Below, one piece after another: positions 2,272 through 28,052 of a stretch of DNA of 64,000 bases. Below the pieces are notes generated by a model that did no database searches, had not been told where the DNA came from, and saw only the letters and a list, made by a program, of their open reading frames with translations. Source of the DNA: Escherichia coli (GTDB lineage: Bacteria; Pseudomonadota; Gammaproteobacteria; Enterobacterales; Enterobacteriaceae); the NCBI RefSeq assembly GCF_024298765.1, contig NZ_CP101210.1; one strand, given 5' to 3'. Position 1 is the first letter of the stretch. Every line of letters begins with the position of its first letter. The position numbers and the translations under genes were made by a program.

Positions 2272-2361
2272 GATTTGCTCCTTATGAATGAGTTAGCGAT
2301 ATAAATGAAAAAGCCGCGCCTCCCGGAGAAGACGCGGCCTGATGGATGAAATGAATGACGT

Positions 2362-2571: not shown

Positions 2572-2600
2572 TTAAACAGGGTGACAGTCCGACATACCGG

Positions 2601-3278: not shown

Positions 3279-3425
3279 GACTGACCTCTGAAATGAACGT
3301 ACGGTGTTATTGATAATGATGGAAGGTATGCAGTGACTGTTCAGGGAATGACGTAGCCGTATATTTAGTTTTCTGTTCAACATATTGTCTCCATACCTGT
3401 CGGGACGGCTTTGGCAGGCCGGCGA

Positions 3426-4106: not shown

Positions 4107-4308
4107 AGATGTGCACTCCGTAAGAAAACATCTTTTATTTCATGATGTTATTATGCATCATGATGTTGAAAGGATGTGTCGCATCCGAATAATCAGAAAT
4201 AAAATGCAGCAGAAAAAATATTCCTTTAATTATCTGATTTTTAAGCAGGGTTTCATAAAAAGAAGAATGCTTGTTAATCCAGCGACACATCCTGTCGGCG
4301 TGAGTGTG

Positions 4309-5193: not shown

Positions 5194-5377
5194 ACCGGTA
5201 TCCTGTTGATTTCGCTGAACCGGATCACACTAATCCGGTTTATCATTCAGGTAATATGGACGTGAAAAATGATGGAATGTCTGAATTACGGACATGATTG
5301 TTAAAGTGTAATGGAGTATGAAGTGAGTTTTTCCGAACGGGAACTAATGACATACTGCGGTTTCAGGAGATGAGAGG

Positions 5378-8745: not shown

Positions 8746-9111
8746 ACCCTGTAAAACAGCATCTGGTGCCTGAGTGTATACCACGGTAAGGGCGTTGGAT
8801 GATGTCTTTAAATAATACAGTGCATTTTCATTCGTTTCCGCACTTTATGTTTTCACTAATCATAATAGGAAAAGTGACCACTAGCCTTGATAAATTGTAT
8901 TCACGGCCATTTCAGGAGTGGATTGTTGTGAATAACACGATGAGATCAGGGGGCTGAAGATTTTTTCTTTATCCGTTCAGACTTCAGTAACTGGAAAAAG
9001 CTTTCTGTAACCGCATTATAGTGGCAGTTACCGCGATGGTCGTGTTATTTCAGGAACGACTGACGCTCATGGCTTGTACACTAAAGAGTGAACTTAGGTA
9101 ATGACTCCAAC

Positions 9112-9615
9112 TTATTGATAGTGTTTTATGTTCAGATAATGCCCGATGACTTTGTCATGCAGCTCCACCGATTTTGAGAACGACAGCGACTTCCGTCCCA
9201 GCCGTGCCAGGTGCTGCCTCAGATTCAGGTTATGCCGCTCAATTCGCTGCGTATATCGCTTGCTGATTACGTGCAGCTTTCCCTTCAGGCGGGATTCATA
9301 CAGCGGCCAGCCATCCGTCATCCATATCACCACGTCAAAGGGTGACAGCAGGCTCATAAGACGCCCCAGCGTCGCCATAGTGCGTTCACCGAATACGTGC
9401 GCAACAACCGTCTTCCGGAGACTGTCATACGCGTAAAACAGCCAGCGCTGGCGCGATTTAGCCCCGACATAGCCCCACTGTTCGTCCATTTCCTCGCAGA
9501 CGATGACGTCACTGCCCGGCTGTATGCGCGAGGTTACCGACTGCGGCCTGAGTTTTTTAAGTGACGTAAAATCGTGTTGAGGCCAACGCCCATAATGCGG
9601 GCAGTTGCCCGGCAT
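9112..9615 (-). CDS. insB: IS1 transposase InsB
   Basis: 167-aa ORF matching IS1 InsB as recalled. Confidence 0.9.
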
Positions 9616-9809
9616 CCGACGCCATTCATGGCCATATCAATGATTTTCTGGTGCGTACCGGGTTGAGAGGCGGTGTAAGTGAACTGTAGTTGCCATGTTT
9701 TACGGCAATGAGAGCAGAGATAGCGCTGATGTCCGGCAGTGCTTTTGCCGTTACGCACCACGCCTTCAGGAGCGGAGCAGGAAGGACATCTGATGGAAAT
9801 GGAAGCCAC
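9534..9809 (-). CDS. insA: IS1 protein InsA
   Basis: 91-aa ORF; Zn-finger CPSC...CSHC and HTH of InsA. Confidence 0.9.
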
Positions 9810-10072
9810 GCAAGCACCTTAAAATCACCATCATACACTAAATCAGTAAGTTGGCACCATTACCTGACCAAGCTTCCTCTATTGCGGCACCTGATTGCAT
9901 CAATATCGAAAGTGATAAGATCCTCTCACTAGCAGGGCATGACAAGTGTAACTGCTGATTTGTTAGCCTGTTTTAAGTTTTTTAAGATCAATTATTTCTC
10001 ATTTTTTGACTTTATTGCTAGCCGTGAAAATGCAAAGCCTATAGGATACAAAAATTACAATTTGTAGGTTTT

Positions 10073-10579
10073 GTGAGTCATATGAAGGCAACCAATATAG
10101 ACCCTCAACTGCTTGAAAAAGCCACGAGTATCTTTGCTGAGTTGGGCTTACCTATTGAGCAGGCTATTAACGTCTTTTTAGCTAAATCCGTTCAAGCCAA
10201 AGGTTTTCCGTTTTCTGTTGCTCTTGAAAATGAAGTAGAGACACGGGAAGTTGCACAAACGCAACACAATATCAGCAATGCAGAGATAACCGAAGCTATC
10301 CAAGACTTGGTTGAACATGCTCTACCACTGAGTGAAATAGAAAACCTCACGCAGCTAACCTATTGTCGCAACATTTTTGGGTTGTCATTCCCCGTGCTCA
10401 AACTGGCTAAATCATCACGGCCAGAAGACATTCGCAGTGCAGCCAAAGATGCCAAAGAGCGAAACCGCTACTCCACCACTAAAGTGGCCCAGCGAGATGA
10501 AAAAACCTATGTTATTTGCACCCAATGGACCGACAGACATCGTTCTGCATTTTGCCGTTGGCAAGCCATCTTTAGCTAG
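10073..10579 (+). CDS. RelB/DinJ-like antitoxin-domain protein with ~100-aa C-terminal extension
   Basis: N-terminal IDPQLLEKATSIFAELGLPIEQAINVFLAKSVQAKGFPFSV resembles DinJ/RelB fold; no toxin ORF adjacent; ends 66 bp before hsdM. Confidence 0.4.
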   Translation: MSHMKATNIDPQLLEKATSIFAELGLPIEQAINVFLAKSVQAKGFPFSVALENEVETREVAQTQHNISNAEITEAIQDLVEHALPLSEIENLTQLTYCRNIFGLSFPVLKLAKSSRPEDIRSAAKDAKERNRYSTTKVAQRDEKTYVICTQWTDRHRSAFCRWQAIFS

Positions 10580-10645
10580 AACGCAAAATAATAACCAAAC
10601 AATACACTGATTTTTTAACGATTTAACTTCATTTAGGTAGTATCA

Positions 10646-12625
10646 ATGAACTTACAAGACAAAGAACAAAGCGCCAAACTCTCCAGTGCTATTTGGCGTA
10701 TGGCAGATGATTTATGGGGTGATTTCAAACACACCGATTTTGCGCGGATTATCCTGCCATTTTTGCTACTGCGTCGTATTGAATGCGTGTTAGAACCCAC
10801 CCGTGAGGAAGTTCGTAAGTTCTATCTGGCCGAAAAACAATCCGGCATAGACCTTGGTTTAGTGTTGCCAGAAATTGCGGGATTCGCCTTTTACAACACC
10901 AGTGAATATAGCCTAGAAACCTTAGGCGCGTCAGACACCGGCGACAACCTAGAACACTACATCAGCCAGTTCAGCAAAAACGTTCGTACCATCTTTGATG
11001 AGTTTAAATTTGGTCAAACCATAGAAGATCTGGAAAAAGCCAAGTTGCTGTATCGCATGGTAAACCATTTTGCCAACCTCGACTTGCATCCTGATGTAGT
11101 GTCTGACCGCGTATTATCAGATGCTTATGAAGAGCTGATTCTAAAGTTCGCCAGTTCGGTTAATGAAAAGGCCGGGGAATTTATGACCCCGCGTGATGCC
11201 GTGCGTCTTGCCACCAAACTGGTGCTGGCGGCGGATGAAGATATCTTTAGTGAAAAGGGTGTGATCCGCACCATCTATGACCCAACCTGTGGCACGGGCG
11301 GTTTCCTTTCCGATGCCATTAGCCAAATTGAAGAAATGGGCAGCAGCGCTAAAGTCGTGCCTTTTGGTCAAGAGCTCGACCCCGCGACCCATGCCATGGC
11401 GCTGACCAATATGATGATCCGCGGTTTTGATGCCAATAACATCAAGCAAGGCAACACCTTATCAGACGATCAGTTACGTGCCGACAAGTTTCACTACGGC
11501 CTTGCCAACCCGCCATTTGGCATTAAGTGGGAAAAAGCCAAGAAAGAAGTAGAACGTGAGCACAAACAGCTCAAATACGCCGGACGCTTTGGGCCAGGCC
11601 TGCCGAGTATTTCTGATGGTTCAATGCTGTTTTTACTGCACTTGGTATCAAAAATGGAAACGCCGGAAAATGGTGGTGGCCGAGTGGGTATAGTCCTTTC
11701 TGGCTCGCCACTGTTTAATGGCGATGCAGGCTCAGGCCCATCAGAAATCCGCCGTTGGCTGCTAGAACAAGACTTAGTCGAAGCGATTGTTGCCCTGCCA
11801 ACCGATATGTTCTTCAACACCGGCATTGGCACCTACATCTGGATTTTGACTAACCATAAAGAGCCAAGACGCAAGAATCAGGTGCAACTGATTAACTTGG
11901 CAGATATTTGGACTCCCATGCGTAAATCGCAAGGCGATAAGCGCAAGTACCTGAGTGATGAACAGATTGACGATATTGTCCGTGCGTACGATGGCTTTGA
12001 AGCCAGTGACAACTGTAAGATCTTCCAGACTACTGATTTTGCCTACCGTAAAGTCACCATTCAGCGTCCACTGCGTGCCAAACTAGATATTACCGCTGCG
12101 GGCATTGCTGCATTTGTGCAGCAAGATACGTTTAAAAAACTCAAACCAGAGCAACAAGCGGCATGGGTACAATACCTCACCGATAACCTTGGCCTTCAGC
12201 CTTATGAATGGGCACGTTTGGCGGTTAAGAAGAATAACAATAAGGGTGACTTTGGTAAGTGCTCAAAAGCACTGGCTACGGCCTTAACTGCGCACTTTGT
12301 AAAAATTGATCCGCAATTTGAGCCTGCACTGGATGAAAAAGGCCAAGTGATCGCCGACCCTAAACTCAAAGACACCGAAAGCATTCCTTTTGACCGCGAC
12401 GTTGAAGATTACTTCGCACAAGAGGTGCTGCCACATGTACCGGATGCCTTTATTGATCACTCAGTGCGTGATGAAAAAGACGGCGAAGTGGGCATTGTCG
12501 GTTATGAAATTAACTTTAACCGCTATTTCTACCAATACGTGCCACCACGCGAGTTGAGTGTGATTGATCGTGAGCTAAAAGCATGTGAAGCGCGCATTCA
12601 GGCTCTGCTGAATGAGGTGGCGTAA
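10646..12625 (+). CDS. hsdM: Type I restriction-modification methyltransferase subunit HsdM
   Basis: 659 aa; motifs FMTPR, DPTCGTGGFL (SAM binding), NPPFG (catalytic); stop overlaps hsdS start (TAATG). Confidence 0.9.
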   Translation: MNLQDKEQSAKLSSAIWRMADDLWGDFKHTDFARIILPFLLLRRIECVLEPTREEVRKFYLAEKQSGIDLGLVLPEIAGFAFYNTSEYSLETLGASDTGDNLEHYISQFSKNVRTIFDEFKFGQTIEDLEKAKLLYRMVNHFANLDLHPDVVSDRVLSDAYEELILKFASSVNEKAGEFMTPRDAVRLATKLVLAADEDIFSEKGVIRTIYDPTCGTGGFLSDAISQIEEMGSSAKVVPFGQELDPATHAMALTNMMIRGFDANNIKQGNTLSDDQLRADKFHYGLANPPFGIKWEKAKKEVEREHKQLKYAGRFGPGLPSISDGSMLFLLHLVSKMETPENGGGRVGIVLSGSPLFNGDAGSGPSEIRRWLLEQDLVEAIVALPTDMFFNTGIGTYIWILTNHKEPRRKNQVQLINLADIWTPMRKSQGDKRKYLSDEQIDDIVRAYDGFEASDNCKIFQTTDFAYRKVTIQRPLRAKLDITAAGIAAFVQQDTFKKLKPEQQAAWVQYLTDNLGLQPYEWARLAVKKNNNKGDFGKCSKALATALTAHFVKIDPQFEPALDEKGQVIADPKLKDTESIPFDRDVEDYFAQEVLPHVPDAFIDHSVRDEKDGEVGIVGYEINFNRYFYQYVPPRELSVIDRELKACEARIQALLNEVA

Positions 12626-13911
12626 TGAATGCTGGCAACATAGTAGATGCTTTCGTATCTGACTCGAAATGGAACTCAGTACCAGCTAAACGTTTATTTA
12701 CGAGTAGCAAAGAAATCAATCAAGGAATGAAAGAATCTAATCGTCTTGCACTAACAATGAAAGGTGTCATAAACCGCTCGTTAGACGATTTACAAGGACT
12801 TCAATCTTCTGATTACTCTGTTTATCAGATTTTTGAAAAAGATGACTTAGTTTTTAAGCTCATAGATCTTGAAAATATAAAGACTAGCCGAGTGGGGATT
12901 GTGCATGAACGAGGAATAATGAGCCCTGCATACATCCGTGTTTCAGCGAGTTCAAATAGCATCTACCCAAGGTTCTATTACTGGTACTTTTTTGCTCTAT
13001 ACCTAACCAATATTTATAACAAACTGGGTGGAGGAGTTCGTCAGAACCTAACAGCTGGTGATCTTTTAGAAATACCTGTTCCACTGATTGATATTTCATT
13101 ACAGAAGCAGGTTAGCACATTCCTTGATCGCGAAACCCAGCGCATCGACAGTCTGATCGAGGAAAAGCAGACCTTTATTAAGCTGCTCAAAGAAAAACGC
13201 CAAGCACTGATCAGCCATGTGGTCACAAAGGGGCTCTATCCCAATGTGGAGATGCAGGACTCTGGCATCGAGTGGATTGGGCAAGTGCCGAAGCATTGGG
13301 AAGTCAAAAAGATAAAGCATATTTGCTCCAACTTTATGTATGGAACCTCTCAAGACTGTAACCAGTCTGATGTTGGCTATCCTGTTCTCAGGATACCAAA
13401 CATCAAGAGTACCAATGTTGATTTTGAAGATCTCAAATATGCAAATATCAGTGATGTTGATGCTTTAACTTATCTTTTATCAAGAGGCGACATTTTAGTC
13501 ATCAGAACTAACGGTAACCCTAATCTGGTCGGCCAAAGCGCGCTTTTTGATTCAAATGGGCAGTATTTATTTGCGTCGTACCTAATAAAGTTAACACCAA
13601 AGCAAGGAGTGGATACTAGCTTCTTAGTGGAAGCGATGAACTCACTATCTGTTCGTCAAGCATTAACATTTCAGTCAAGAACATCGGTAGGTAACTACAA
13701 CCTGAGCATTCCTTCACTAGCTAATACAAGTATTGCTATCCCACCAATTGATGAGCAAAAGACAATAACGAATTACTTGAGTGCAGCAACGATAAACATT
13801 GATTTACTGATTCAAGAGACTGATAAATCGATTGATCTTCTAAAAGAACACCGCACATCGCTGATCAACGCGGCTGTCACAGGAAAAATAGACGTCAGGG
13901 AGGCGGTGTAA
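12625..13911 (+). CDS. hsdS: Type I restriction-modification specificity subunit HsdS
   Basis: 428 aa; two variable target-recognition regions separated by conserved central (ETQRIDSLIEEKQTFIKLLKEKRQALI) and C-terminal repeats; TAATG overlaps on both sides. Confidence 0.85.
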   Translation: MNAGNIVDAFVSDSKWNSVPAKRLFTSSKEINQGMKESNRLALTMKGVINRSLDDLQGLQSSDYSVYQIFEKDDLVFKLIDLENIKTSRVGIVHERGIMSPAYIRVSASSNSIYPRFYYWYFFALYLTNIYNKLGGGVRQNLTAGDLLEIPVPLIDISLQKQVSTFLDRETQRIDSLIEEKQTFIKLLKEKRQALISHVVTKGLYPNVEMQDSGIEWIGQVPKHWEVKKIKHICSNFMYGTSQDCNQSDVGYPVLRIPNIKSTNVDFEDLKYANISDVDALTYLLSRGDILVIRTNGNPNLVGQSALFDSNGQYLFASYLIKLTPKQGVDTSFLVEAMNSLSVRQALTFQSRTSVGNYNLSIPSLANTSIAIPPIDEQKTITNYLSAATINIDLLIQETDKSIDLLKEHRTSLINAAVTGKIDVREAV

Positions 13912-16900
13912 TGGCTGCACATCATGAAGTGCATTTTGAACAATATATTACCGAGCAGTTGGTGAACAATGGCTGGAAAGAAGGCCATTCCTGCCACTAT
14001 GACCAGCAACGCGCCCTTTACCCGCAAGATGTCATGGATTGGGTAAAGGCCACCCAGCCAGATGCCTGGCACAAACTGAATAAACTGCATGGTGTGAATG
14101 CCGAGCAGGTGCTGTTGGAGCGTTTGGAAAAAGCCCTCTCTTCCCACAAAGCTGGCAGTAAAACAGGTGGCACCATTAATGTGCTGCGTAAAGGCTTTAC
14201 CATTGCAGGTTGCGGCACGATTGCCATGGGCCAACGCAAACCCGAAGATGCGCGCAATGAAGAGCGTATAGCCCGTTATGAGCACAACATTTTGCGCGTG
14301 GTGCGCCAACTGAAATATTGCCCGACTCGCGAGTGGGAAATTGACTTGGTGTTCTTTATCAACGGTCTACCCGTTGCCACCGCCGAGCTAAAAACCGATT
14401 TTACCCAGTCGCTAGAATCGGCGATTGCGCAGTACAAAGAGGATCGTCTGCCCGTTGACCCAAAAACCAAGCGTAAAGAGCCGCTGTTAACCTTTAAACG
14501 CGGTGCAGTGGTACATTTTGCCATGTCTGATACAGAAATCGCCATGGCGACCAAACTGGCGGGAGAAAATACCTATTTTCTGCCCTTCAATAAAGGCCAT
14601 GATGGTTCTACCTCTGATTTGCCCGTACACATCAACTTGCCGGGTGAAGATGGAGAGTATCCGGTCAGCTATTTTTGGCAAGAAATTGCCCAAAAAGATA
14701 ATTGGCTACGCATTTTCTACAGCTTTGTGTATGTCGAAACCAAAGAGGTTGCCGATAGCAATGGCAAGGTTGAGCGTAAGGAAACACAGATTTTTCCGCG
14801 TTATCATCAGTTAGCCGCAGTCAACAAGATGATTGATGATGCCCGCCAGAACGGCGCAGGCATGCAGTATCTTTGTGAGCACAGCGCCGGTTCGGGAAAA
14901 ACCTCTACCATAGCCTGGACGGCCCATGATTTGATTCGTTTACGCAGCACCGATGGTAAAGCGGTCTTTAAATCAGTGATCATTGTGACCGACCGCACCG
15001 TGCTGGATTCGCAGTTGCAAGATGCGGTGCAACAGCTGGATCATCAATATGGGGTGATTAAGGCGATTGATCGCGAAAAGAGCAGCGAGTCGAAATCAAA
15101 ACAGCTGACTGAAGCGCTATTGACTGGCACGCCGATCATTGTAGTGACGATTCAAACCTTCCCATATGCGTTAGAAGCGATTCTGACCAATCAATCTTTG
15201 GCACAAAGTAACTTTGCGGTGATCATCGATGAAGCACACACCTCGCAAACAGGCTCTACAGCCAAAGGGTTACGCGCAGCGCTTACTCTAAACCTTAGCC
15301 CTCAAGAGTTGGAGCAAATGAGCATTGAGGACATTCTTACTAAGGTGCAAGAAGCGCGCGCCATGCCCAAGAACGTTTCGCACTTTGCTTTTACGGCAAC
15401 ACCCAAGCACAGCACCAAGATGTTGTTTGGCCGCCCGAAAGACCCTAACCAACCAGTGTCAGATGACAATCTTCCTGAATCGTTCCACCTCTACACCCAA
15501 CGTCAGGCCATTGATGAGGGTTTTATTCTTGATGTGCTGGAGAATTACACCCACTACGATACAGCCTACAAAATTGGTGAGAACAATCTGGATGAGAAGC
15601 GCGTAGACAGCAAACAAGCTCGCCGCGCGTTGGCGCGCTGGATGTCACTGCACCCAACCACGGTCAGCCAAAAAGTCGAATTTATTATTAAGCACTTCAA
15701 GGCCAATATCGCTCACCTACTGGAAGGTGAAGCCAAAGCCATGGTGGTCACATCGGGCAGGCCACAGGCGGTGAAATACAAGCTTGCTTTTGATAAATAC
15801 ATTAAAAAGCATGGTATTGAAGGTATCCAAGCCTTGGTTGCCTTCTCGGGCAAAGTCCCCGGCAAAGATTTGGGTGATGAAGACAGCCAAGACCCGCTAG
15901 AAATTGATTTCGATAAAGAGTACACCGAGTACAACTTAAACCCAGACACGCACGGGGCTGACCTGCGCCATGAGTTTGAGAAAACCGAATATCGCGTCAT
16001 GTTAGTCGCCAACAAGTTCCAAACGGGCTTTAATCAACCAAAACTGGTTGCCATGTATTTGGATAAGAAAATATCCGATGTAGAAGCGGTGCAAACGCTG
16101 TCTCGCCTAAACCGCACCTATCCAGGCAAAGACACAACCTTCGTGATTGATTTTGTTAACGATCCACAAACCATTCTCAATGCGTTCAAAAAGTACGACA
16201 AAGGCGCGCAGCTTAATGAAGTGCAAGATGTGAACGTCATCTATGACATCAAAGATATTTTGGATGAACAGAACATATACAACCATCAAGATTTAGAGTT
16301 GTTTAAGCAAGCGCGTGGTAAATCGATTCTCGGCCAATCACCTGACAAAAAGCCACACGCGCACAAGAAACTGCTAGCTGCCACACAACGCCCTACCGAT
16401 GTGTTCAACGTTAAGCTCAAAGAGCTGGTTGATGCTGCAAACCATTGGGATCAGCAATACAACAAAGCGCACCTTGCGGGTGATGAAAAAGCGGCGAACT
16501 ACGCAGAATCTCAGCGCAGTGATTTCACCAAGCAGCGCGAAGCACTAATGCGTTTTAAGTCAGATTTAGCTCGATTTGTGAAGCACTATAGCTATATGGC
16601 GCAATTGATTGAGTTTGGTGATCCTGAACTGGAAAACTTTGCCGCGTTTGCTCATTTGCTATCACGTCGATTGAAAGGGGTAACACCAGAAAACATCGAT
16701 CTCAGTGCACTGGTACTAGAAAAATTCAAAATCAAATACGACAAAGAGCCGCTTCCAGAAGCGTTTAATCAGGTACTTGAACCTATCCGCCCCAACTATA
16801 ACGACCCTGCGGATCGTGAACAGGCATTTCTTGCCGATATCATTCGCCGCCTAAACGAACTGTTTGGCGATGTCGGCGACGAACCCGGTCGCCGAAACTT

Positions 16901-17147
16901 TGCCAACGGTACTATTACGCGTGTCACCCAAAATCCAATTGTGGTTGAGCAGATAGAAAAGCACGACAAGTCGATTGCCCTCAAAGGCGACTTGCCGCAA
17001 GCGGTGAAGCAAGCCGTTGTGCAGGCTCTGCTGAAAGAAGGTGATATAGCCCGAACGCTACTCAAAGACCCACAAGTTATGGCAAGTTATGTTGAGTTGA
17101 TTTTTGACATGATGAAGCAAGGTGCAGAACAGGCGGCGGTGAAATAA
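13911..17147 (+). CDS. hsdR: Type I restriction enzyme endonuclease/helicase subunit HsdR
   Basis: 1078 aa; Walker A GSGKTST and DEAH box (VIIDEAHTSQ); GGGAGG RBS; TAATG overlap with hsdS and with downstream gene. Confidence 0.9.
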   Translation: MAAHHEVHFEQYITEQLVNNGWKEGHSCHYDQQRALYPQDVMDWVKATQPDAWHKLNKLHGVNAEQVLLERLEKALSSHKAGSKTGGTINVLRKGFTIAGCGTIAMGQRKPEDARNEERIARYEHNILRVVRQLKYCPTREWEIDLVFFINGLPVATAELKTDFTQSLESAIAQYKEDRLPVDPKTKRKEPLLTFKRGAVVHFAMSDTEIAMATKLAGENTYFLPFNKGHDGSTSDLPVHINLPGEDGEYPVSYFWQEIAQKDNWLRIFYSFVYVETKEVADSNGKVERKETQIFPRYHQLAAVNKMIDDARQNGAGMQYLCEHSAGSGKTSTIAWTAHDLIRLRSTDGKAVFKSVIIVTDRTVLDSQLQDAVQQLDHQYGVIKAIDREKSSESKSKQLTEALLTGTPIIVVTIQTFPYALEAILTNQSLAQSNFAVIIDEAHTSQTGSTAKGLRAALTLNLSPQELEQMSIEDILTKVQEARAMPKNVSHFAFTATPKHSTKMLFGRPKDPNQPVSDDNLPESFHLYTQRQAIDEGFILDVLENYTHYDTAYKIGENNLDEKRVDSKQARRALARWMSLHPTTVSQKVEFIIKHFKANIAHLLEGEAKAMVVTSGRPQAVKYKLAFDKYIKKHGIEGIQALVAFSGKVPGKDLGDEDSQDPLEIDFDKEYTEYNLNPDTHGADLRHEFEKTEYRVMLVANKFQTGFNQPKLVAMYLDKKISDVEAVQTLSRLNRTYPGKDTTFVIDFVNDPQTILNAFKKYDKGAQLNEVQDVNVIYDIKDILDEQNIYNHQDLELFKQARGKSILGQSPDKKPHAHKKLLAATQRPTDVFNVKLKELVDAANHWDQQYNKAHLAGDEKAANYAESQRSDFTKQREALMRFKSDLARFVKHYSYMAQLIEFGDPELENFAAFAHLLSRRLKGVTPENIDLSALVLEKFKIKYDKEPLPEAFNQVLEPIRPNYNDPADREQAFLADIIRRLNELFGDVGDEPGRRNFANGTITRVTQNPIVVEQIEKHDKSIALKGDLPQAVKQAVVQALLKEGDIARTLLKDPQVMASYVELIFDMMKQGAEQAAVK

Positions 17148-17701
17148 TGAATACTGCGTTTCGGGTTTTACTTACGTTCAATGCAACATCACTACTAGTG
17201 ATTATCTTTGCGGTACAAAAAGGGTACTCACTCGGATATTTCTTTGGTGGTTTCGCTTGCTTCGATTGGATAGCAGCACTTCCGAACGCAGTATCATATT
17301 TACTCTATTTTCTTATCCCTGTTTTATCGACTGGATTGAGTATTTGGCTGAGTAAGTATTTGGGTAAAGACGATTTTAAGGCGGGTGAAGTAGCGAGTAT
17401 TGAGCATGCCAATAACAGCTTCCTACCAAGTTATTTGGGTTACTTTTTCGTGGCGTTGAGCATTGGTAACTGGGAGACATTGTGGTTTGTTTATGGCGTT
17501 TTGTTTGTTTTTACTCTCTTATCGCAAGCACTCTACTTTAACCCATTGTTTTTACTGTTTGGTTATGAGTTTTATAACATTACAACCAAAAACGGAACGG
17601 CCATTTTCCTTATTAGCCGAGAGCGCTACAAGAAGCCAGATGACATCGAAATATCATTGGCTTATCGAATCAATAATTACACATTTATCGAGCGAGGATA
17701 A
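17147..17701 (+). CDS. small integral membrane protein (about 4 predicted TM helices), translationally coupled to hsdR; KwaA-like candidate
   Basis: 184 aa; hydrophobic segments LLVIIFAV, YLLYFLIPVLSTGLSIWL, YLGYFFVALSI, LWFVYGVLFVFTLL; start overlaps hsdR stop (TAATG); visibly more AT-rich than hsdR. Confidence 0.6.
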   Translation: MNTAFRVLLTFNATSLLVIIFAVQKGYSLGYFFGGFACFDWIAALPNAVSYLLYFLIPVLSTGLSIWLSKYLGKDDFKAGEVASIEHANNSFLPSYLGYFFVALSIGNWETLWFVYGVLFVFTLLSQALYFNPLFLLFGYEFYNITTKNGTAIFLISRERYKKPDDIEISLAYRINNYTFIERG

Positions 17702-18543
17702 TGATGGACCATGTACTGGCACATATAAAAACTAGAGCAAAAAAACGCATTTTCAAATTGGTTTCTGATCAATCTCTTTTTGATACCGTCACAATCGACT
17801 TAAATGCCTGTATTCCATACAATCCAGACCATAACCTTGACGAAGACTCATGGTTTAAAATTGAAGACTTTAGTCAAAAAGAGTTTTGTATTGAACTGCT
17901 AAAAAAAGACTATGATTCAAAAGACTACGATGACTTAACCAAAGATAACTTCGCCAAGATCGCCTACTTATTTGCAATTCAAGGTAATGATTTTTACTTT
18001 CAAAAAATCACTCCAAGCCTATTCGTAAAACGCAAAACGCTTGTTTTTGGTGAAGCCGCAGAAATTGAGAAGAGCCAAACACGTTTAGTAATAAACGCCT
18101 TACCTGATGCAGTGTACTTCAAAGTGGCCGATACCTTGATATTCAAAAATCTGGCAACGATCTCGAGCATTTTTAAAGGTATCGATGAGTTGTACAAGGA
18201 AGCAACAAAAGAAGAAGTTGAGCAGTTTTTAGATGCACAGTTTATAGAGTTGGGTAATGACTACAACGTAGATAGCGTCTCAAAACCTAATAGAAAACGT
18301 ATTGGCCTTGCTATGGCAACACTTGATGCGATGTCTGCTGACGATAAAGCTAACATGCTTGATTATATCGACGGTTACTGCGGTGAACAGAAGCTGAAAT
18401 TCGATAAAGAAAATCAGAAGTTTGAAATATCTAATGACGATGAGTTGAAGTTACTGCTTTATGGCATTGAACAACGCTTCTATACGACCCCGTTTGGCAA
18501 AGAAAAAAGGCTCGCTAACTCTGTAACCGCTATGGATAAATAA
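17701..18543 (+). CDS. hypothetical acidic cytoplasmic protein, coupled to the membrane protein; KwaB-like candidate
   Basis: 280 aa, no TM segments, GAGG RBS, start overlaps upstream stop (TAATG); family not recognised by eye. Confidence 0.6.
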   Translation: MMDHVLAHIKTRAKKRIFKLVSDQSLFDTVTIDLNACIPYNPDHNLDEDSWFKIEDFSQKEFCIELLKKDYDSKDYDDLTKDNFAKIAYLFAIQGNDFYFQKITPSLFVKRKTLVFGEAAEIEKSQTRLVINALPDAVYFKVADTLIFKNLATISSIFKGIDELYKEATKEEVEQFLDAQFIELGNDYNVDSVSKPNRKRIGLAMATLDAMSADDKANMLDYIDGYCGEQKLKFDKENQKFEISNDDELKLLLYGIEQRFYTTPFGKEKRLANSVTAMDK

Positions 18544-18563
18544 TAGCCCATTATCAGTAACAT

Positions 18564-19613
18564 ATGAAGGTTGATTCAATGGCCGATAACATCCCACAAG
18601 CTCCTCAAGGTGAGTTTGTTCTTTTCACCAGTGCTGATGGTCAAACCCGCGTTGAGTGTCGTTTTGAGTCTGACACCTTGTGGCTTTCTCAGGCTGCAAT
18701 GGCAGAGCTTTATCAAGTTAGCTCTCAAGCAATCACCCAACACGTAAAAGCTGTCTATTCTGAAGAAGAGCTTGAGCAAATTTCAACTTGTAAGGATTAC
18801 TTACAAGTTCAACTGGAAGGTGGCAGAGAAGTAAAGCGAAGCATTCGTCACTACAGTCTTCCGGTTATTCTTGCAGTAGGATACCGAGTTCGCTCAACAC
18901 GTGGCACCCAGTTCCGCCAATGGGCAACCAGAATGTTGCAAGAATACCTAATCAAAGGATTCGTCATGGATGACGAGCGCCTGAAAAATCCGCCCATTGG
19001 CCATTCTGCTGTGCCAGATTACTTTGATGAAATGCTGGAACGCATTCGTGATATCCGAGCTAGTGAGCGTCGCGTTTATCTGCGAGTCAAAGAAATCTTT
19101 ACCATGGCTGCTGATTACGAGCCATCTAACCAAGAGACCAACCGCTTCTTCCAAACCATTCAGAATAAGCTGCATTATGCTTGTACGCATATGACGGCTG
19201 CTGAGCTTATCGCCAGCCGTGTGGATGCCAGTAAGCCGGATATGGGCTTAACCAGCTATAAAGGCGATGAAGTGCGCAAGACAGACGTTACTGTTGCCAA
19301 GAACTATTTGCGTGAAGACGAAATCAAAGAGCTTAATCGCATCGTCAATATGTGGCTCGACTTTGCTGAAGACCAAGCACTGCGTCGCAAGCAGGTATTT
19401 TTACAGGACTGGGCCGATAAGCTTGACCAGTTCTTGAGTTTTAACGATAGAGATGTATTAAACGGTGCAGGAAAAATCTCCAAGAAAGACGCTGATGACA
19501 AAGCGAAATTGGAGTTTGACCGCTTTGCCCAGCAGCGCCGTCGTTTAAAAGAAGCCGAAGGCGCACGGGCCAATATCGCAGCCCTCAAGGCCATACTAAA
19601 AAAAGATAAATAG
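18564..19613 (+). CDS. rhuM: RhuM-family protein
   Basis: 349 aa; sequence recalled as RhuM family, often found beside Type I RM loci; likely true start at ATG 18579 (GAAGG RBS). Confidence 0.55.
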   Translation: MKVDSMADNIPQAPQGEFVLFTSADGQTRVECRFESDTLWLSQAAMAELYQVSSQAITQHVKAVYSEEELEQISTCKDYLQVQLEGGREVKRSIRHYSLPVILAVGYRVRSTRGTQFRQWATRMLQEYLIKGFVMDDERLKNPPIGHSAVPDYFDEMLERIRDIRASERRVYLRVKEIFTMAADYEPSNQETNRFFQTIQNKLHYACTHMTAAELIASRVDASKPDMGLTSYKGDEVRKTDVTVAKNYLREDEIKELNRIVNMWLDFAEDQALRRKQVFLQDWADKLDQFLSFNDRDVLNGAGKISKKDADDKAKLEFDRFAQQRRRLKEAEGARANIAALKAILKKDK

Positions 19614-19670
19614 CCGATATAGTACAGCCCTGATCTCTAATGAGTTGAGGGCTGTGTTGTAAGATCATAA

Positions 19671-20347
19671 CTATAAAGGATTATCCATCTTAAAATCGTC
19701 GATATCGCCTGTCATTTTGAATAGATTGGTGTCATTCCAACGGCACAGTTGTCTAACCCGCATTAGATTTGAGTTGGCTCTGCGGATTATTGAGAAAGCA
19801 TCTTCAACAGCAGTAATCACCGATTTTTCCCAATCTTGTGCTCGGGTAAAGGTGCTTTGTGAATAGCGATAATTGCCCTCACGGGGGAGGTAATGGCTGA
19901 TCACCTGGTATTTGTCAGAATTCTTTTTAGGTTTAAACTCGTTGTAAACCCAGAAAATTTCGAGTTTTTTGTTTCTTTGCCTTACACGACAACCAAAATG
20001 ACCTGGGTAGCCTTCAGAGTTTTTACCTCTATGTGCAACGTTGTTCAGCCAGAACAAGTCTGCAATTTTTTGTGCTATGTAGAAGTAGCGGAGCTGTTCT
20101 ATTTCGGTTGATTTATGGGTGTAGTGTAGATATTGCTCTGATATGGTTAAGGAAAAAGCATTGCGTCGTCTTGATTAACATTTGTGCTATTGACAATAAA
20201 GGTTTCCCAAATATTAATTTGTGTTTCTAGTCCTTTAAATGATTTTGAGAAGGCTTCTATGTACTCAGATTGCGGTTGATTTCCCCCATTTAGTGCTGCA
20301 CCAAATGTAGCTATCTATTGTTCTAAAAATGAATGATTTTTGGTCAT
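19671..20347 (-). pseudogene. disrupted gene of unknown function (at least three frame segments)
   Basis: 128-aa ORF has no in-frame ATG at its 5-prime end and is open upstream; two more open segments in other frames up to an ATG near 20347. Confidence 0.4.
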
Positions 20348-20425
20348 TACATAATCCTCTGTGTGGTTGATACTGCGTATTTTCATGAAAGGAGATCACT
20401 CAATAACCCCCCTGTGTCAGCATAG

Positions 20426-20803
20426 TTGTCGCCTCAATTTTTTAAGGAGATAACAATGCCAGGACAACCAATACCAAATGAGCTCAAAGAAAAAGGACTG
20501 ATATGGCTTTTGCCACCATACTGTTGGTCACACCGTCAGATAGCCCGGAAGCTGAAGATCAGTGCCTCAGTTGTATCAAAATGGAGATGTGAGTTAGTGG
20601 AGCAAGGACTTTTACCTGAAAATGAAAAGATTACCTCCGTTGATGTTGAAGACTGGACACCGGAGCGTCGATTCTCAGTTGTTCTTGAGACGGCTACGCT
20701 GTCTGTCACGAACGGTGCAATAGTGGATCACTTTTCATCCGTCGTTGACACTGTCAGAAATGGAGCTTGCCGATTATTGCCGACGCATGGGATTGTTTGT
20801 TGA
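20426..20803 (+). pseudogene. transposase OrfA-like HTH protein, frameshifted
   Basis: HTH SHRQIARKLKISASVVSKW; continuation (leucine-zipper-like RELEKELKRKDKALAEAAALL) lies in another frame. Confidence 0.45.
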
Positions 20804-21376
20804 ACAGGTTAAAGAATGGCGGGCTATCTCAATTCAGGCGCATGAAAAAAATTGACGGAAAATATTCGAACAGACAGGGCATTGCGTGACGCAAAAAATA
20901 AGTTACGAGAACTGGAGAAAGAGCTTAAGCGCAAAGATAAAGCTCTGGCGGAAGCTGCGGCCCTGCTTATATTAAGGGAAAAGTTCAATGCCCTCTGGGA
21001 CAACAGCGAGGAAGACTGCCCCCTCTCCTGGAGCGGCATAAAATTATTTCTCTTGTCCGTGAGGCCGTCGCCAACGGCGCCCGGAAAGGTCAGGCTTGTA
21101 GGTGTATCGGTATTTCTATTCGGACACTTCAGCGCTGGACTAATGGCAACATCATCACCACGGACCGAAGATCCGATACTGTAAACAGCTCTCCCCGAAA
21201 TAAGCTGTCAGAAGCGGAAAGATTGCGAATACTGGAGTTGTGCAACTCTCCAGAGTTTGCATCCTTGCCTCCAAATGTGATCGTACCAACTCTGGCAGAC
21301 AGAGGTATTTATATTGCTTCTGAATCAAGTTTTTATCGTGTACTGAAATCAGCCAAGCAGTTGAAGAAACGATCCC

Positions 21377-21853
21377 GTGAATGCCAGTATAAACTGGCCT
21401 GATGTACTCAGGGCCGTTGCACCGAATCAAGTCTGGAGTTGGGACATCAGCTATTTGCCGTCCTGGGTCAGAGGCCAGCATTTTTACCTCTATATGATCG
21501 TCGATATTTACAGTCGCAAAATTATTGCTGCTGAGGTATTTGCCAGCGAATCTGGAAAACATGCAGCAGAACTACTCCAGCGTGCAGTATGGAATGAAAA
21601 ATGTTCATCCAACAATCTGGTACTCCATTCTGATAACGGTGGTCCCATGCGCAGTGACACGTTGTTGGCGAAAATGTATGCGCTTGGTGTGCTAAGTTCT
21701 TATTCCCGGCCAAGAGTCAGTAATGATAATCCTTACTCAGAATCTTTGTTCCGGACTCTCAAATATTGTCCCTGGTGGCCTGAGAACGGTTTTCGCACTA
21801 TTGATGATGCCAGAGTATGGGTAAACCAGTTTTGTAAACTGGTACAACTTTGA
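21377..21853 (+). pseudogene. DDE transposase catalytic core fragment
   Basis: WSWDISYLP...YLYMIVDIYSRKII...HSDNGGPM motifs; N- and C-terminal parts in other frames. Confidence 0.5.
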
Positions 21854-22180
21854 ACATAAGCACAGCGGGATCAAATACGTCACGCCAGCCGAGCGTCATC
21901 AAGGTAATGACATGAAAATACTGGCAGCCTGAAAAGCGGTATACCAGCTAGCTCGCGAGCAACATCCTGAACGTTGGGGCAAGTATCTACGTAACTGGAA
22001 CTACATATCAGAAGTCTACCTGAATCCAGAAAAAGAGGCTGCATAACGTAATTTTATTACAAAAAGCGACAACTACCTTGAAAAACACCGCCAAATCATG
22101 ATCGATTCGAATGCCAAACTGCGATCGATTCAGATGCCATTTTGCATGCTGCCAGAGCAATATTCCCCCTGATGGTTGTA

Positions 22181-22855
22181 TCAGAGATGGTATGCCGGTA
22201 CTTTGCGGGTTGTTCCTGTCAGGTTATCGTGCACCTCCACATTCGTTGTCACTACCGGCATTCCGTTCTGTCTTAGTCTCAGGACATCAGCCGCAATACG
22301 CTGACTGCCAGACCAGAACAGGCCGTCCAGCGCAGTCACCAGCAATCCCGCCTCCAGCGCATACTTCAGCCGTTCACGGGGCACTTTCACTTCCCGGGCA
22401 ATCTGCTGATAGGGTGATGATGTATTTTCATTCCCAACCATCCGGCGAATACGGTGAGACAGATGATACCGGAATGTATCCGGCACACCGGAAAGACTGG
22501 CCTTCAGGCTGTACACGCAGCCAAATCGCTTATCGTTGAACACCACATTTTTCTGGCTGATATCCCATTCTTCTCGAAGCGCAGCAATCAGCTGTGGCGT
22601 GCGGGTTAAAAGCAGACGAAAAGGCAGTTCAAAACTGGTGACGTAATCCACATTCAGCAGGGCAATACGCAGCCGTTCTTCTGGTCCGGCCTCTGTCTGC
22701 CGACACTCCTCCAGAACATCCTGCCACTGCTGGCAAAGGCGTGGAGATTCATTCAGTTCTGTAAAACAATATTTATCCGCAAGATAGTCAATTTGTGCAG
22801 GCATACTGAAGAGAATTCCGTATAAAGATTCAGCAGACAAAACTTTATCAGTCAA
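22181..22855 (-). CDS. hypothetical protein; its 5-prime region is duplicated upstream of tssF
   Basis: 224-aa ORF; first ~66 codons plus ~25 bp upstream recur (diverged) at 37305-37527. Confidence 0.5.
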   Translation of the reverse strand: MTDKVLSAESLYGILFSMPAQIDYLADKYCFTELNESPRLCQQWQDVLEECRQTEAGPEERLRIALLNVDYVTSFELPFRLLLTRTPQLIAALREEWDISQKNVVFNDKRFGCVYSLKASLSGVPDTFRYHLSHRIRRMVGNENTSSPYQQIAREVKVPRERLKYALEAGLLVTALDGLFWSGSQRIAADVLRLRQNGMPVVTTNVEVHDNLTGTTRKVPAYHL

Positions 22856-22880
22856 TAAGAATCAACGGAAGCACAGAAGG
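22658..22880 (-). repeat. copy 1 of ~220-bp diverged segment (5-prime end of gene at 22855)
   Basis: Pairs with 37305-37527 on the opposite strand; homology ends at GATTACGTCA. Confidence 0.7.
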
Positions 22881-22986
22881 TTCATACGTCCATCACCAAC
22901 TGATTGTTGTCATAACGGGTAACATAAAGGACTGAACGACTGTTTGAACCGCCCCGGGTTTCCTGGAGAGTGTTTTATCTGTGAAC

Positions 22987-26237
<3,251 letters not shown>

Positions 26238-26922
26238 GTTCCAGCTCTTTCAGACGCTGACGTTCAGCGCTGGTGAGCCCACCATCACCGCCCCCGGTAT
26301 CCCGCTCATGCTGGCGAACCCAGACACGCAGAGTCTCCGGCGTACAGCCAATCTTTGGAGCAATGGAACAAATTGCCGCCCACTGTGAGTCATATTCATC
26401 CTGACTTTCCAGAACCATACGAATCGCCCGCTGACGGACTTCGGGGGAAAAACGAGTATTTTTAGTCATCCTGTTTACCTCTTTCTCAGGGAGTTTAGTC
26501 TCCAGGATTTCCGGGGCGGTTCAAATACTGGGCGAAGGGAGATGTTATTGCGAAGCGCGCGCCAATTGGTCAGTGGGAACCTTATTCGGAAGAGTCACTA
26601 CTTGGCATCATCGTCACCAGCGTCTGTCGTATTAAAGTCGCGATGCTAAAACCTGAACCTCCCAGAGATCCCCATATCCCGCTGATGGGGGATTTTAACT
26701 AAAACTTAGCGCTATCGCTGCGTATCGTAACTATCCCGTATTACGTAGCGTAAATTATGACGCCATACGGGGAACAAATACACAGAGGAAGAAAAAGATT
26801 AGATTGGTTTTAAGGGATGTTTTTATCATAAATGGCACTGCTAAAATTATGAGATTATCGAAGATAAAATTCTTGATCATACATAAAAGGCCTCCTGAAT
26901 TAAATCAAGAGGCGTATAGTTT

Positions 26923-28041
26923 TTACATTACTGATGTATGTTTAATGATCTCACTGATTTTCACTTTCCTGTCCTGCGATCTTGAAAGAGTGGCAGCATC
27001 AGCAGTAGCAATCGCCGACATGGCCGCCTCACCATTGAGAAGGTCAATATAATCTTCTTCAGGTTTTGCACCACAGAGGATATTATGGAGGAATAACGTC
27101 TCCTTTCTTATTAAACTGGCAAGCCATAATGGTGTTTTTTTTCCTGGATGACCATATGCTATAGCGCCATCCATTTCTGAGGTCATATTGCCTTTCCGAC
27201 GATCATCATCTTCTTCTTGTGTTTCATGGACCAAAAAATGCTTTGTCTGACCGCCAATCCTAAGTGACCCTGCTGTTTCTTGCATATCAATTTTAATAGA
27301 GCCTTTAGTTCCATTGATGATGACATAATGTTCCGGCCAGTTAAATGCACTCCCCCACTCTAAGGTTGCTAGTTTTCCTGACGGGAATTCCAAGGTCATA
27401 AATAACATATCATCTTCATTGCCAAATCCTGGACCAGAATGGGCCAAATTTCCACCAATCATAGTAACCGTCTCTGGTATTTCTCCAAGTAAATGCTGAA
27501 CACAATCTAACTCATGTATATGATGATATAGATGTCCACCAGATTTTTCTTTCATCTTTTTCCAGGAAAGTCTCTCTTGTTTGTTTTCCCAGCCATTTCT
27601 CTTAGTATGACATGATAATATTTCGCCGATAACACCTTCTTTAATTAACTTCCGTGCATATTGAACCCCATTGAAAAAATTCATAATATGCCCGGCCATA
27701 AAGGTCACACCAGCTTCTTTACACGCTTTGACCATATCCACACAATCTTCATAACTTAATGCAATTGGTTTTTCACAAAAAACATGCTTCTTATTCTTTG
27801 CTGCTTTAATTACTGGTTCTTTATGCAGATAATTTGGGGTGGCTACGATCACGCAATCGACTAATTTACTTGAGACTAAAGCATCCAAGCTTGACATATT
27901 GATACACTGCAATTCACGGGCAATATTTTCTCCATTTTCAGGATCGTATACACATGTAATTTTTGCATTATCATGCATATTCATAAAACGAGCTAATTCA
28001 GCGCCAAAGTATCCAACACCAACAACGCCATAATTAATCAT
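26923..28041 (-). CDS. yjhC: Gfo/Idh/MocA family NAD(P)-dependent oxidoreductase (YjhC-like)
   Basis: 372 aa; N-terminal Rossmann GVVGVGYFG; partner MFS gene immediately upstream. Confidence 0.6.
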   Translation of the reverse strand: MINYGVVGVGYFGAELARFMNMHDNAKITCVYDPENGENIARELQCINMSSLDALVSSKLVDCVIVATPNYLHKEPVIKAAKNKKHVFCEKPIALSYEDCVDMVKACKEAGVTFMAGHIMNFFNGVQYARKLIKEGVIGEILSCHTKRNGWENKQERLSWKKMKEKSGGHLYHHIHELDCVQHLLGEIPETVTMIGGNLAHSGPGFGNEDDMLFMTLEFPSGKLATLEWGSAFNWPEHYVIINGTKGSIKIDMQETAGSLRIGGQTKHFLVHETQEEDDDRRKGNMTSEMDGAIAYGHPGKKTPLWLASLIRKETLFLHNILCGAKPEEDYIDLLNGEAAMSAIATADAATLSRSQDRKVKISEIIKHTSVM

Positions 28042-28052
28042 AAAGCCTCCAA

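What the first reader, a model, noticed from the sequence alone, without database searches (positions are those of the whole stretch)
19671..20347. Multi-frame pseudogene between rhuM and IS remnants
About 680 bp on the minus strand is coding-like in three successive frames separated by stops, with an ATG only at the far 5-prime end. It is probably a decayed cargo gene of the RM-associated island.
Basis: seen in the sequence. Interest (0 to 1): 0.3.

Follow-up and report, generated by a model that had tools for sequence, protein, structure and literature searches.

The report
Dead mobI gene of stranded island
This is an ordinary pseudogene: the broken copy of mobI, the gene that once let a plasmid-mobilised defence island (type I restriction, Kiwa, RhuM) move between bacteria, now cut off from its transfer origin by an insertion sequence.

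Summary
Window 20347-19671 (minus strand) is 677 nt. It becomes a 678-nt, 225-codon ORF after two repairs: restoring one T in a T5 run (20157-20153; intact homologues have T6) and reverting a TAG (20317-20315) to CAG. The repaired protein matches Pfam MobI (E 9e-30). It is 86-92% identical over its full length to intact 223-249-aa proteins. Those are encoded in Vibrio cholerae-type genomic islands at trmE (int-xis-DUF927-HTH-oriT-mobI-rhuM-type I RM). This is the published MGIVchHai6 family, which IncC plasmids mobilise. So the gene is not cargo. It is the island's core mobilisation gene, mobI(M).

Homology to intact islands stops 26 bp upstream of the ATG, at 20373, where a decayed IS3-family element begins. 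The oriT, the AcaCD-dependent promoter, the int/xis genes and the att repeat are absent from the whole window. The surviving 128-aa ORF, which RefSeq annotates as "mobI", starts at the same TTG as a truncated construct that failed to support mobilisation (Rivard 2020).

All 71 full-length E. coli copies appear to carry the frameshift. The nonsense codon is shared only with strain FY10. Window ~9865-20373 is a 10.5-kb IS-bounded relic of such an island. This is an ordinary finding of low interest.

The parts
19671..20347 (-). mobI(M) pseudogene. It is 677 nt and would be 678 nt / 225 codons plus stop if intact.
   Evidence: Pfam PF19456 MobI, E 9.1e-30, on the repaired translation. 86-92% identity over 99-100% of the length to the intact proteins P0001-P0005.
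20315..20317 (-). Lesion 1: nonsense codon 11, TAG. Other E. coli copies and L004 have CAG; V. cholerae L003 has CAA.
   Evidence: The window shares it only with E. coli FY10 (100% match). The other full-length E. coli copies listed are 99.7-99.9% identical; CAG was read directly in SMS-3-5, and PGAP calls a 66-aa ORF across this site in the rest.
20153..20157 (-). Lesion 2: single-base deletion in a T run. The window has T5 (ATGCTTTTTCC); intact L003/L004 have T6 (ATGCTTTTTTC). It shifts the frame after codon 65.
   Evidence: Every full-length E. coli match listed spans exactly 714 bases of the record, like the query, so all appear to carry it.
20147..20149 (-). Premature TAA reached in the original frame because of the frameshift.
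19671..20057 (-). Residual 128-aa ORF (TTG start = Leu98 of MobI(M)). RefSeq/PGAP annotates it as 'conjugative transfer protein MobI(A/C)' in FY10.
   Evidence: It is equivalent to the +409 TTG construct, which did not complement the mobI(M) deletion (PMC7449626). It lacks positions 4-10 of the Pfam domain and the invariant residues L86, R87, Y88, Y90, A92 and I95.
20348..20373 (-). The last 26 bp of the native 5' leader (includes the AGAGGA ribosome-binding site). This is all that remains upstream of mobI.
   Evidence: DNA alignment and BLAST: homology to L003/L004 ends at window 20373.
20374..22093 (+). Decayed IS3-family insertion sequence (TG...CA ends; transposase frameshifted with an internal stop). 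It replaces the oriT / AcaCD promoter / 85-86-xis-int side of the island.
   Evidence: PGAP notes; plasmid IS copies match from query base 1 = window 20374. The flanking triplets differ (TAC vs AAT), so no target-site duplication was seen.
19614..19670 (.). Convergent mobI/rhuM intergenic spacer with a hairpin (CAGCCCT...AGGGCTG). It is 100% conserved with the V. cholerae island.
18564..19613 (+). Intact rhuM, the usual neighbour of mobI(M) in this island family.
   Evidence: 87% aa identity to the V. cholerae island's RhuM. The PMC7449626 discussion describes the adjacency.
9865..18563 (+). Cargo of the island relic: RelB-like antitoxin (10082-10579), hsdM (10646-12625), hsdS (12625-13911), hsdR (13911-17147), KwaA-like (17147-17701) and KwaB-like (17701-18543).
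   Evidence: 99.2% identical over 8.7 kb (window 9884-18583) to the cargo of an intact trmE-integrated island in E. coli 1585m1, L005. Kiwa hits; RelB.
9097..9864 (.). IS1 that truncates the other (pinE/attR) end of the relic.
   Evidence: Homology to L005 stops at about 9884, just inside the 3' end of its recombinase (pinE-like) gene.

Best explanation
Window 20347-19671 (minus strand) is the inactivated mobI(M) gene of an MGIVchHai6-type mobilisable genomic island. In intact islands, published work shows or proposes the following. MobI(M) is a 225-aa auxiliary relaxosome factor made from an AcaCD-activated promoter. It is thought to recognise the island's own oriT, which lies just upstream of the gene. 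Transfer also needs the TraI relaxase and the type IV secretion system of a co-resident IncC plasmid, which move the excised island to a new cell. In this window every step of that pathway is broken. Shown here: (a) a decayed IS3-family element abuts the gene 26 bp upstream of the ATG, and the window holds no oriT region, AcaCD box, regulator 85, DUF927 gene 86, xis, int or att repeat; (b) a single-base deletion in a T6 run shifts the frame after codon 65, and it appears in all 71 full-length E. coli copies; (c) a C-to-T change makes codon 11 a stop, seen only in this window and strain FY10. Inferred: the order of events was IS-mediated truncation and frameshift first, in the common ancestor of the E. 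coli copies, and the nonsense mutation last. Also inferred: the leftover 128-aa ORF has no mobilisation function. The 10.5-kb block at ~9865-20373 (RelB-like, hsdMSR, Kiwa, rhuM, mobI pseudogene) is therefore a stranded, IS-bounded fragment of an IncC-mobilisable defence island that can no longer excise or be mobilised on its own.
For: The repaired ORF is 678 nt / 225 aa, the length of experimentally defined MobI(M) (PMC7449626). Pfam MobI PF19456 scores 103.6 bits, E 9e-30. Full-length intact homologues are 86-92% identical. Their loci read trmE-int-HTH(xis)-DUF927-HTH-[intergenic]-mobI-rhuM-...-hsdR/S/M in V. cholerae (L003) and in L004. An intact island at mnmE/trmE in E. coli 1585m1 carries cargo 99.2% identical to window 9884-18583. 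The lesions were located by DNA alignment. Nucleotide homology to intact islands ends at 20373, and IS homology starts at 20374. The intergenic oriT region is 91% conserved among three intact islands but has no match anywhere in the window, nor do the AcaCD boxes, the Int/Xis/DUF927 proteins or the att repeat. The literature places oriT (minimal 49 bp) immediately upstream of ORF 84, at least 117 bp upstream of the mobI(M) ATG, and promoter P84 within those 117 bp. Truncations starting at +304 (Met63) or +409 (TTG Leu98) do not complement. rhuM adjacency and type I RM cargo are typical of the family. All 71 full-length E. coli copies share the same junction, and every listed match has the same 714-base span. 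dN/dS against intact genes is 0.15-0.17, compared with 0.11 between intact genes, so decay is recent relative to divergence. No promoter-like site lies upstream of the ATG.
Against: No expression or transfer data exist for this locus. RefSeq/PGAP annotates the 128-aa (FY10) or 157-aa (SMS-3-5) C-terminal ORF as an ordinary mobI CDS, not a pseudogene. That ORF retains most of the Pfam MobI domain (profile positions ~11-116 of 116). The truncation experiments were done on the MGIVchHai6 protein (about 87% identical, judging by L003), not on this allele. An NCBIfam scan gave no MobI model hit, so family assignment rests on Pfam, homologues and synteny. An outward-reading promoter in the IS end cannot be excluded by a consensus scan.
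Confidence: 0.93

Rival explanations
1. The C-terminal ORF (128 aa from TTG 20057, or 157 aa from ATA 20144 as annotated in SMS-3-5) is a functional, shortened MobI that still acts in mobilisation.
For: PGAP annotates it as 'conjugative transfer protein MobI(A/C)'. It contains most of the Pfam MobI domain. IncC plasmid MobI aligns only to residues 92-215 of the repaired protein.
Against: Constructs of mobI(M) starting at +304 or +409 (the same TTG) failed to restore mobilisation (PMC7449626). The 128-aa ORF lacks six invariant residues, L86-I95. It has no oriT to act on, no promoter-like site and a non-canonical or weak start codon. Four substitutions private to the E. coli relic fall at sites conserved in the intact homologues: Q101L, L124Q, P164S, P176S.
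Confidence: 0.03
2. The frameshift is programmed: ribosomal -1 slippage or transcriptional slippage on the T run yields full-length MobI in the E. coli lineage.
For: The shift sits in a homopolymeric T5 run, and the downstream frame is reached by re-reading one T. The frameshift allele appears in all 71 full-length E. coli copies.
Against: Intact homologues have T6 and a single ORF. CTT TTT CCT is not an X XXY YYZ heptamer in the zero frame, and from general knowledge T5 is too short for efficient transcriptional slippage. In this window an upstream TAG at codon 11 blocks translation anyway. The near-identity (99.7-100%) among the E. coli copies fits recent common descent, not selection.
Confidence: 0.01
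3. The lesions are sequencing or assembly errors, and the gene is intact in the organism.
For: Homopolymer length errors are common in some long-read assemblies.
Against: The T5 allele appears in all 71 full-length copies, from independent complete genomes that include older assemblies such as SMS-3-5. The TAG is also present in FY10. Even with both lesions corrected, the promoter and oriT are replaced by an IS.
Confidence: 0.01
4. The three segments are unrelated coding-like stretches, not one former gene.
For: None found.
Against: Single intact proteins of 223-249 aa cover all segments collinearly at 86-92% identity. DNA is 87-88% identical across the whole gene and into rhuM.
Confidence: 0.005

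Closest known systems
MobI(M) of MGIVchHai6 (Vibrio cholerae HC-36A1; Carraro 2016 PMC4958241; Rivard 2020 PMC7449626), group A trmE-type islands
   Same: The repaired product has the same length (225 aa) and collinear alternative start positions (Met63 at +304, TTG Leu98 at +409). It is 86-92% identical to island-borne homologues. It shares the convergent rhuM neighbour, and type I RM cargo lies between mobI and the pinE-like recombinase.
   Different: The gene here is inactivated twice (nonsense plus frameshift). The upstream oriT, the AcaCD boxes, genes 85-86-xis-int and both att ends are missing. The fragment sits in a mosaic island rather than at trmE; in FY10 that island lies downstream of tRNA-Sec.
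Intact MGIVchHai6-like island at mnmE/trmE of E. coli 1585m1 (NZ_CP086391, L005). Table S1 of Rivard 2020 lists similar islands in E. coli NCTC10962, K. pneumoniae and Salmonella Emek.
   Same: The cargo order is identical (RelB-like, hsdM, hsdS, hsdR, KwaA-like, KwaB-like, rhuM, mobI), with 99.2% nucleotide identity over 8.7 kb.
   Different: Its mobI (194 aa) and rhuM are only 83% identical to the window's, so the module has a mosaic origin. It keeps int, xis, DUF927, HTH, the intergenic oriT region and the recombinase, and it has an IS21 between rhuM and the Kiwa-like genes.
MobI(C) of IncA/IncC plasmids and MobI of SXT/R391 ICEs (Pfam PF19456)
   Same: They share the MobI domain. The published role is an oriT-recognising auxiliary factor, encoded next to oriT, that works with a MOB_H relaxase TraI.
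   Different: Identity is only 27-31% over residues ~92-215. Plasmid MobI does not align to the first ~90 residues. Island and plasmid proteins are specific for their own oriT (PMC7449626).

Membership tests
MobI protein family (Pfam PF19456) | Significant match to the MobI profile above the gathering threshold | tested here: met
   103.6 bits against a cut-off of 26.6, E 9.1e-30, profile positions 4-116 of 116. The match is on the conceptually repaired translation; as encoded, no single ORF covers it fully.
MobI protein family (Pfam PF19456) | Intact, translatable ORF of family-typical length | tested here: not met
   TAG at codon 11 and a single-base deletion after codon 65. The longest ORF is 128 aa from a TTG.
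MGIVchHai6-type (group A) IncC-mobilisable genomic island | mobI(M) homologue closely related to island-borne, not plasmid-borne, MobI | tested here: met
   86-92% identity to island proteins against 27-31% to plasmid MobI.
MGIVchHai6-type (group A) IncC-mobilisable genomic island | Backbone int-xis-86(DUF927)-85(HTH)-intergenic region-mobI | tested here: not met
   tblastn with Int, Xis, DUF927 and the gene-85 protein from L003 finds none of the module in the window. The only hit is a 40% AlpA-like match at 36319-36474, outside the relic. DNA homology ends at 20373.
MGIVchHai6-type (group A) IncC-mobilisable genomic island | oriT in the intergenic region upstream of mobI, with divergent AcaCD-binding sites | tested here: not met
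   the region is 91% conserved among three intact islands but has no match in the window. The AcaCD box core GCCCAAAAAGGGC gives only scattered hits with 2-3 mismatches.
MGIVchHai6-type (group A) IncC-mobilisable genomic island | Integration at the 3' end of trmE, flanked by the att repeat TTCTGTATCGGGAAGTAA | tested here: not met
   no match with up to 3 mismatches; no tRNA genes in the window; tblastn with the TrmE protein of L003 also gave no hit in the window.
MGIVchHai6-type (group A) IncC-mobilisable genomic island | Variable cargo between mobI and pinE that encodes rhuM and a type I RM system | tested here: met
   family description.
MGIVchHai6-type (group A) IncC-mobilisable genomic island | Excision and transfer in the presence of an IncC helper plasmid | not testable with these tools
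   This needs a mating assay. The prediction from missing int/xis/oriT and a dead mobI is no autonomous mobilisation.

The most novel reading that the evidence does not exclude
The surviving C-terminal MobI-domain ORF (128 aa here, 157 aa in other strains) could be transcribed from an outward-reading promoter in the abutting IS3-family element. It might then act as a decoy that binds the MobI-binding domain of IncC TraI without an oriT, lowering IncC plasmid transfer. That would be fertility inhibition by a domesticated relaxosome fragment. It is suggested only by two published observations: MobI(M) over-expression reduces helper plasmid transfer about 40-fold (PMC7449626), and CtiC inhibits IncC transfer by competing at the MobI-TraI interface (bioRxiv 10.1101/2025.04.21.649884).
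Probability: 0.03. Interest if true: 0.5.

Novelty: new member of a known kind. Interest (0 to 1): 0.15.

Why it matters
The practical value is modest. First, it corrects an annotation. RefSeq lists the 128- or 157-aa fragment as a functional 'conjugative transfer protein MobI(A/C)', once with an ATA start, in about 70 E. coli chromosomes. That could mislead mobility predictions, because the locus is a pseudogene with no oriT. Second, it gives a provenance for a defence block (type I RM, Kiwa, RhuM, RelB-like) present in 76 of the 5,426 complete E. coli genomes searched (about 1.4%). The block arrived on an IncC-plasmid-mobilisable island of a family best known from Vibrio, and IS-mediated truncation then fixed it in place. 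This is a concrete example of how mobilisable defence islands become immobile chromosomal cargo. It opens no long-standing question.

Tried and rejected
- **NCBIfam scan** of the fragments and the repaired protein found no MobI model, only a weak and irrelevant PRK13672 hit below cut-off. The family call therefore rests on Pfam, homologues and synteny.
- **First BLAST script** returned nothing, because several loci are stored in one FASTA file. It was re-run correctly.
- **Leftover oriT or AcaCD box:** sensitive blastn-short and fuzzy regex searches of the whole window gave only chance-level 11-16-mers.
- **att repeat of trmE islands:** none found.
- **Island recombination and regulation proteins:** tblastn found none in the window; the 40% AlpA-like hit at 36319 belongs to another element.
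- **Promoter scan** upstream of the ATG: nothing, and the total count is at shuffle level.
- **Programmed frameshifting and sequencing error** were both considered and rejected (see rival explanations).
- **One paper** ('Genomic Islands as minimal hitchers') matched the search term only through the word 'mobilizable' and added nothing.
- **Not run:** the expensive genome contigs or metagenome scans, structure prediction and fold search. The identity was already settled by full-length homologues and published experiments.

Full report
**1. What the sequence shows**

On the minus strand an ATG sits at 20347-20345 and the terminal TAG at 19673-19671, a span of 677 nt. Translation in the ATG frame gives MTKNHSFLEQ, then TAG (20317-20315), then 55 more sense codons and TAA (20149-20147). 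The remaining 160 codons, down to 19671, are open in the frame one base off. So there are three segments but only two frames. The mechanical ORF list finds only a 128-aa ORF starting at TTG 20057.

**2. The segments are one former gene**

I joined the segments conceptually and searched with the result. Five intact proteins of 223-249 aa cover 99-100% of the query at 86-92% identity, several named MobI(A/C) from Vibrio cholerae. The joined translation hits Pfam MobI (PF19456) at 103.6 bits, E 9e-30, profile positions 4-116 of 116. IncC-type plasmids encode only distant relatives, at 27-31% identity over residues ~92-215. NCBIfam gave no MobI hit.

**3. The lesions**

DNA alignment with intact copies shows two lesions.

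- Codon 11 is TAG in the window. It is CAG in E. coli SMS-3-5 and in L004, and CAA in V. cholerae L003.
- After ATG(Met63)-CTT the window and SMS-3-5 have five Ts (ATGCTTTTTCC). L003 and L004 have six (ATGCTTTTTTC).

Adding one T and reverting TAG to CAG gives a 678-nt ORF of 225 codons plus stop, the same length as the intact genes. NG86 dN/dS of the repaired gene against the intact genes is 0.15-0.17. Between two intact genes it is 0.11. Most divergence therefore predates inactivation. Differences from L004 cluster in the middle of the gene, which suggests past recombination.

**4. Genomic context of intact homologues**

The V. cholerae locus L003 reads trmE, integrase, HTH (xis), DUF927, HTH, a ~460-bp intergenic region, mobI, rhuM (convergent), AAA_13, hsdR, hsdS, hsdM. 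L004 has the same backbone. This is the MGIVchHai6 family.

Published work on the family establishes the following.

- Carraro 2016 (PMC4958241) described the islands as IncA/C-mobilisable. [quoted passage not shown]
- One of the published box sequences, GAAGTTCCCAAAAAGGGCAGTTCCAGCG, is present exactly, as its reverse complement, in L003, L004 and L005.
- Rivard 2020 (PMC7449626) showed that mobI(M) encodes a 225-aa protein starting at ATG118 of ORF 84.
- Constructs starting at +304 (ATG) or +409 (TTG) do not complement a deletion.
- The minimal oriT is a 49-bp fragment immediately upstream of ORF 84, so at least 117 bp upstream of the ATG. The AcaCD-responsive promoter lies within those 117 bp.
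- TraI of the IncC helper is required for transfer.
- rhuM usually flanks mobI(M), and trmE-type group A islands mostly carry type I RM systems.

Counting codons in L003 puts +304 at Met63 and +409 at Leu98 (TTG). The window's 128-aa ORF is therefore the exact counterpart of a construct shown to be non-functional.

**5. What is left of the island in the window**

Nucleotide homology to L003 and L004 covers only window 18567-20373, which is rhuM plus mobI, at 87-88%. It stops 26 bp upstream of the ATG.

From 20374 the sequence is an IS3-family element. Copies on plasmids align from exactly that base. Its ends are TG...CA (20374 and ~22093). PGAP flags its transposase as frameshifted with an internal stop. 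Its flanking triplets differ, TAC against AAT. This fits an IS-associated deletion or rearrangement rather than a simple insertion.

The intergenic oriT region is 91% conserved among the three intact islands L003, L004 and L005. It has no counterpart anywhere in the 64-kb window, and neither do the AcaCD box cores. The following are also absent:

- Int, Xis and DUF927;
- the trmE att repeat from Table S1 of Rivard 2020;
- any tRNA gene.

No promoter-like site lies upstream of the ATG.

**6. The cargo and the other boundary**

E. coli 1585m1 carries an intact island at mnmE/trmE. Its order is int, xis-like HTH, DUF927, HTH, mobI (194 aa), rhuM, IS21, two 'hypothetical' genes, hsdR, hsdS, hsdM, RelB/DinJ-like antitoxin, recombinase.

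Its cargo (L005 19194-27893) matches window 18583-9884 at 99.2%. Its mobI-rhuM module is only 83% identical to the window's.

The match ends a few tens of bases inside the recombinase (pinE-like) gene. There the window has an IS1 (9097-9864), again without matching flanks.

Window ~9865-20373 is therefore a 10.5-kb fragment of such an island, truncated by IS elements at both ends. From the ~8-kb core it keeps only the dead mobI.

The two 'hypothetical' genes hit PADLOC KwaA (E 9e-16) and KwaB (E 7e-14). The cargo is thus type I RM plus Kiwa plus RhuM plus a RelB-like protein.

**7. Distribution**

- 76 of 5,426 complete E. coli genomes contain the mobI sequence, always on the chromosome. 71 have it at full length.
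- All full-length matches listed are 99.7-100% identical and span exactly 714 bases, like the query. They therefore appear to share the T5 frameshift. This is inferred from span and identity; the T run was read directly only in SMS-3-5.
- 71 records also cover the 861-bp query that spans the IS junction and the rhuM end. This points to one ancestral truncation event.
- Only FY10 is 100% identical, so only it shares the TAG.
- A few genomes hold shorter remnants, with 26-41% coverage.
- PGAP annotates the FY10 copy as a 128-aa 'mobI'. In SMS-3-5 it annotates a 66-aa hypothetical protein plus a 157-aa 'mobI' whose start falls on ATA at window 20144.
- The window is 99.97% identical to FY10 over 7600-32214 but differs elsewhere. 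In FY10 the mosaic island lies downstream of tRNA-Sec.

**8. Interpretation**

The best-supported reading (confidence 0.93) is a mobI(M) pseudogene inside an IS-truncated, immobilised relic of an MGIVchHai6-type island.

Shown here:
- homology, the two lesions and the breakpoints;
- absence of oriT, promoter, int, xis and att;
- conservation of the same relic across E. coli genomes.

Taken from the literature:
- what intact MobI(M) does, namely that it is needed with IncC TraI for transfer from the adjacent oriT under AcaCD control;
- that MobI binds the C-terminal domain of TraI (bioRxiv 10.1101/2025.04.21.649884);
- that N-terminal truncations are inactive.

Inferred:
- the order of events;
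- that the residual ORF is functionless here.

Rivals each receive 3% or less: a functional short MobI, programmed frameshifting, sequencing error, and unrelated ORFs.

**9. Verdict**

This is a real but ordinary feature. It is a decayed copy of a described gene family, which already carries a misleading RefSeq annotation. Interest is 0.15.

Noticed in passing
window 17147-17701 (+) and 17701-18543 (+): The two genes between hsdR and rhuM are annotated 'hypothetical protein' in RefSeq. They hit PADLOC KwaA (E 9e-16) and KwaB (E 7e-14), so they look like an unannotated Kiwa anti-phage pair. They travel with the type I RM system at 99% identity in the intact trmE island of E. coli 1585m1. Pfam gives no hit.
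   Followed up: partly
window 23460-25058 (-) and 26073-26188 (-): A group II intron lies inside an IS3-family element (IS1203-like): Rfam RF00029 at 23460-23546, with the ltrA reverse transcriptase/maturase at ~23550-25058 by FY10 annotation. The element's ALIL frameshift pseudoknot is at 26073-26188.
   Followed up: partly
L002 (E. coli SMS-3-5) 12114-12790 = window 20347-19671: Annotation artefact. PGAP splits the pseudogene into a 66-aa 'hypothetical protein' and a 157-aa 'MobI(A/C)' whose start codon falls on ATA. In FY10 it calls a 128-aa TTG-start 'mobI'. Neither is flagged as a pseudogene.
   Followed up: yes
L005 (E. coli 1585m1, NZ_CP086391) 10540-28468: This is an apparently intact MGIVchHai6-like island at mnmE/trmE in a gull E. 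coli isolate. Its RM/Kiwa cargo is 99.2% identical to the window, but its mobI-rhuM module is only 83% identical. The window's module is closer, at 87-88%, to Vibrio-type islands. Backbone and cargo therefore have different histories (module exchange).
   Followed up: partly
window 22181-22855 (-): A 224-aa ORF (RefSeq WP_001470157.1, hypothetical) is sandwiched between two IS3-family remnants. It has no Pfam or PADLOC hit.
   Followed up: partly
window 36319-36474: An AlpA-like HTH coding stretch is 40% identical to the island's gene-85 product. It presumably belongs to a different integrated element in this mosaic region.
   Followed up: no
window 1-7600 and 32214-64000: The window is 99.97% identical to E. 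coli FY10 only across 7600-32214. The left part is 98.3% identical (CP4-like yeeU/cbtA region). The right part matches other strains (T6SS tssF, sucrose PTS genes). The surrounding island is therefore a strain-specific mosaic.
   Followed up: partly
window 19671-20347 vs L004 4614-5291: Nucleotide differences from the closest intact gene (L004) are concentrated in the middle third: no differences in the first 150 nt and almost none in the last 150 nt. This indicates recombination within mobI among island lineages.
   Followed up: no
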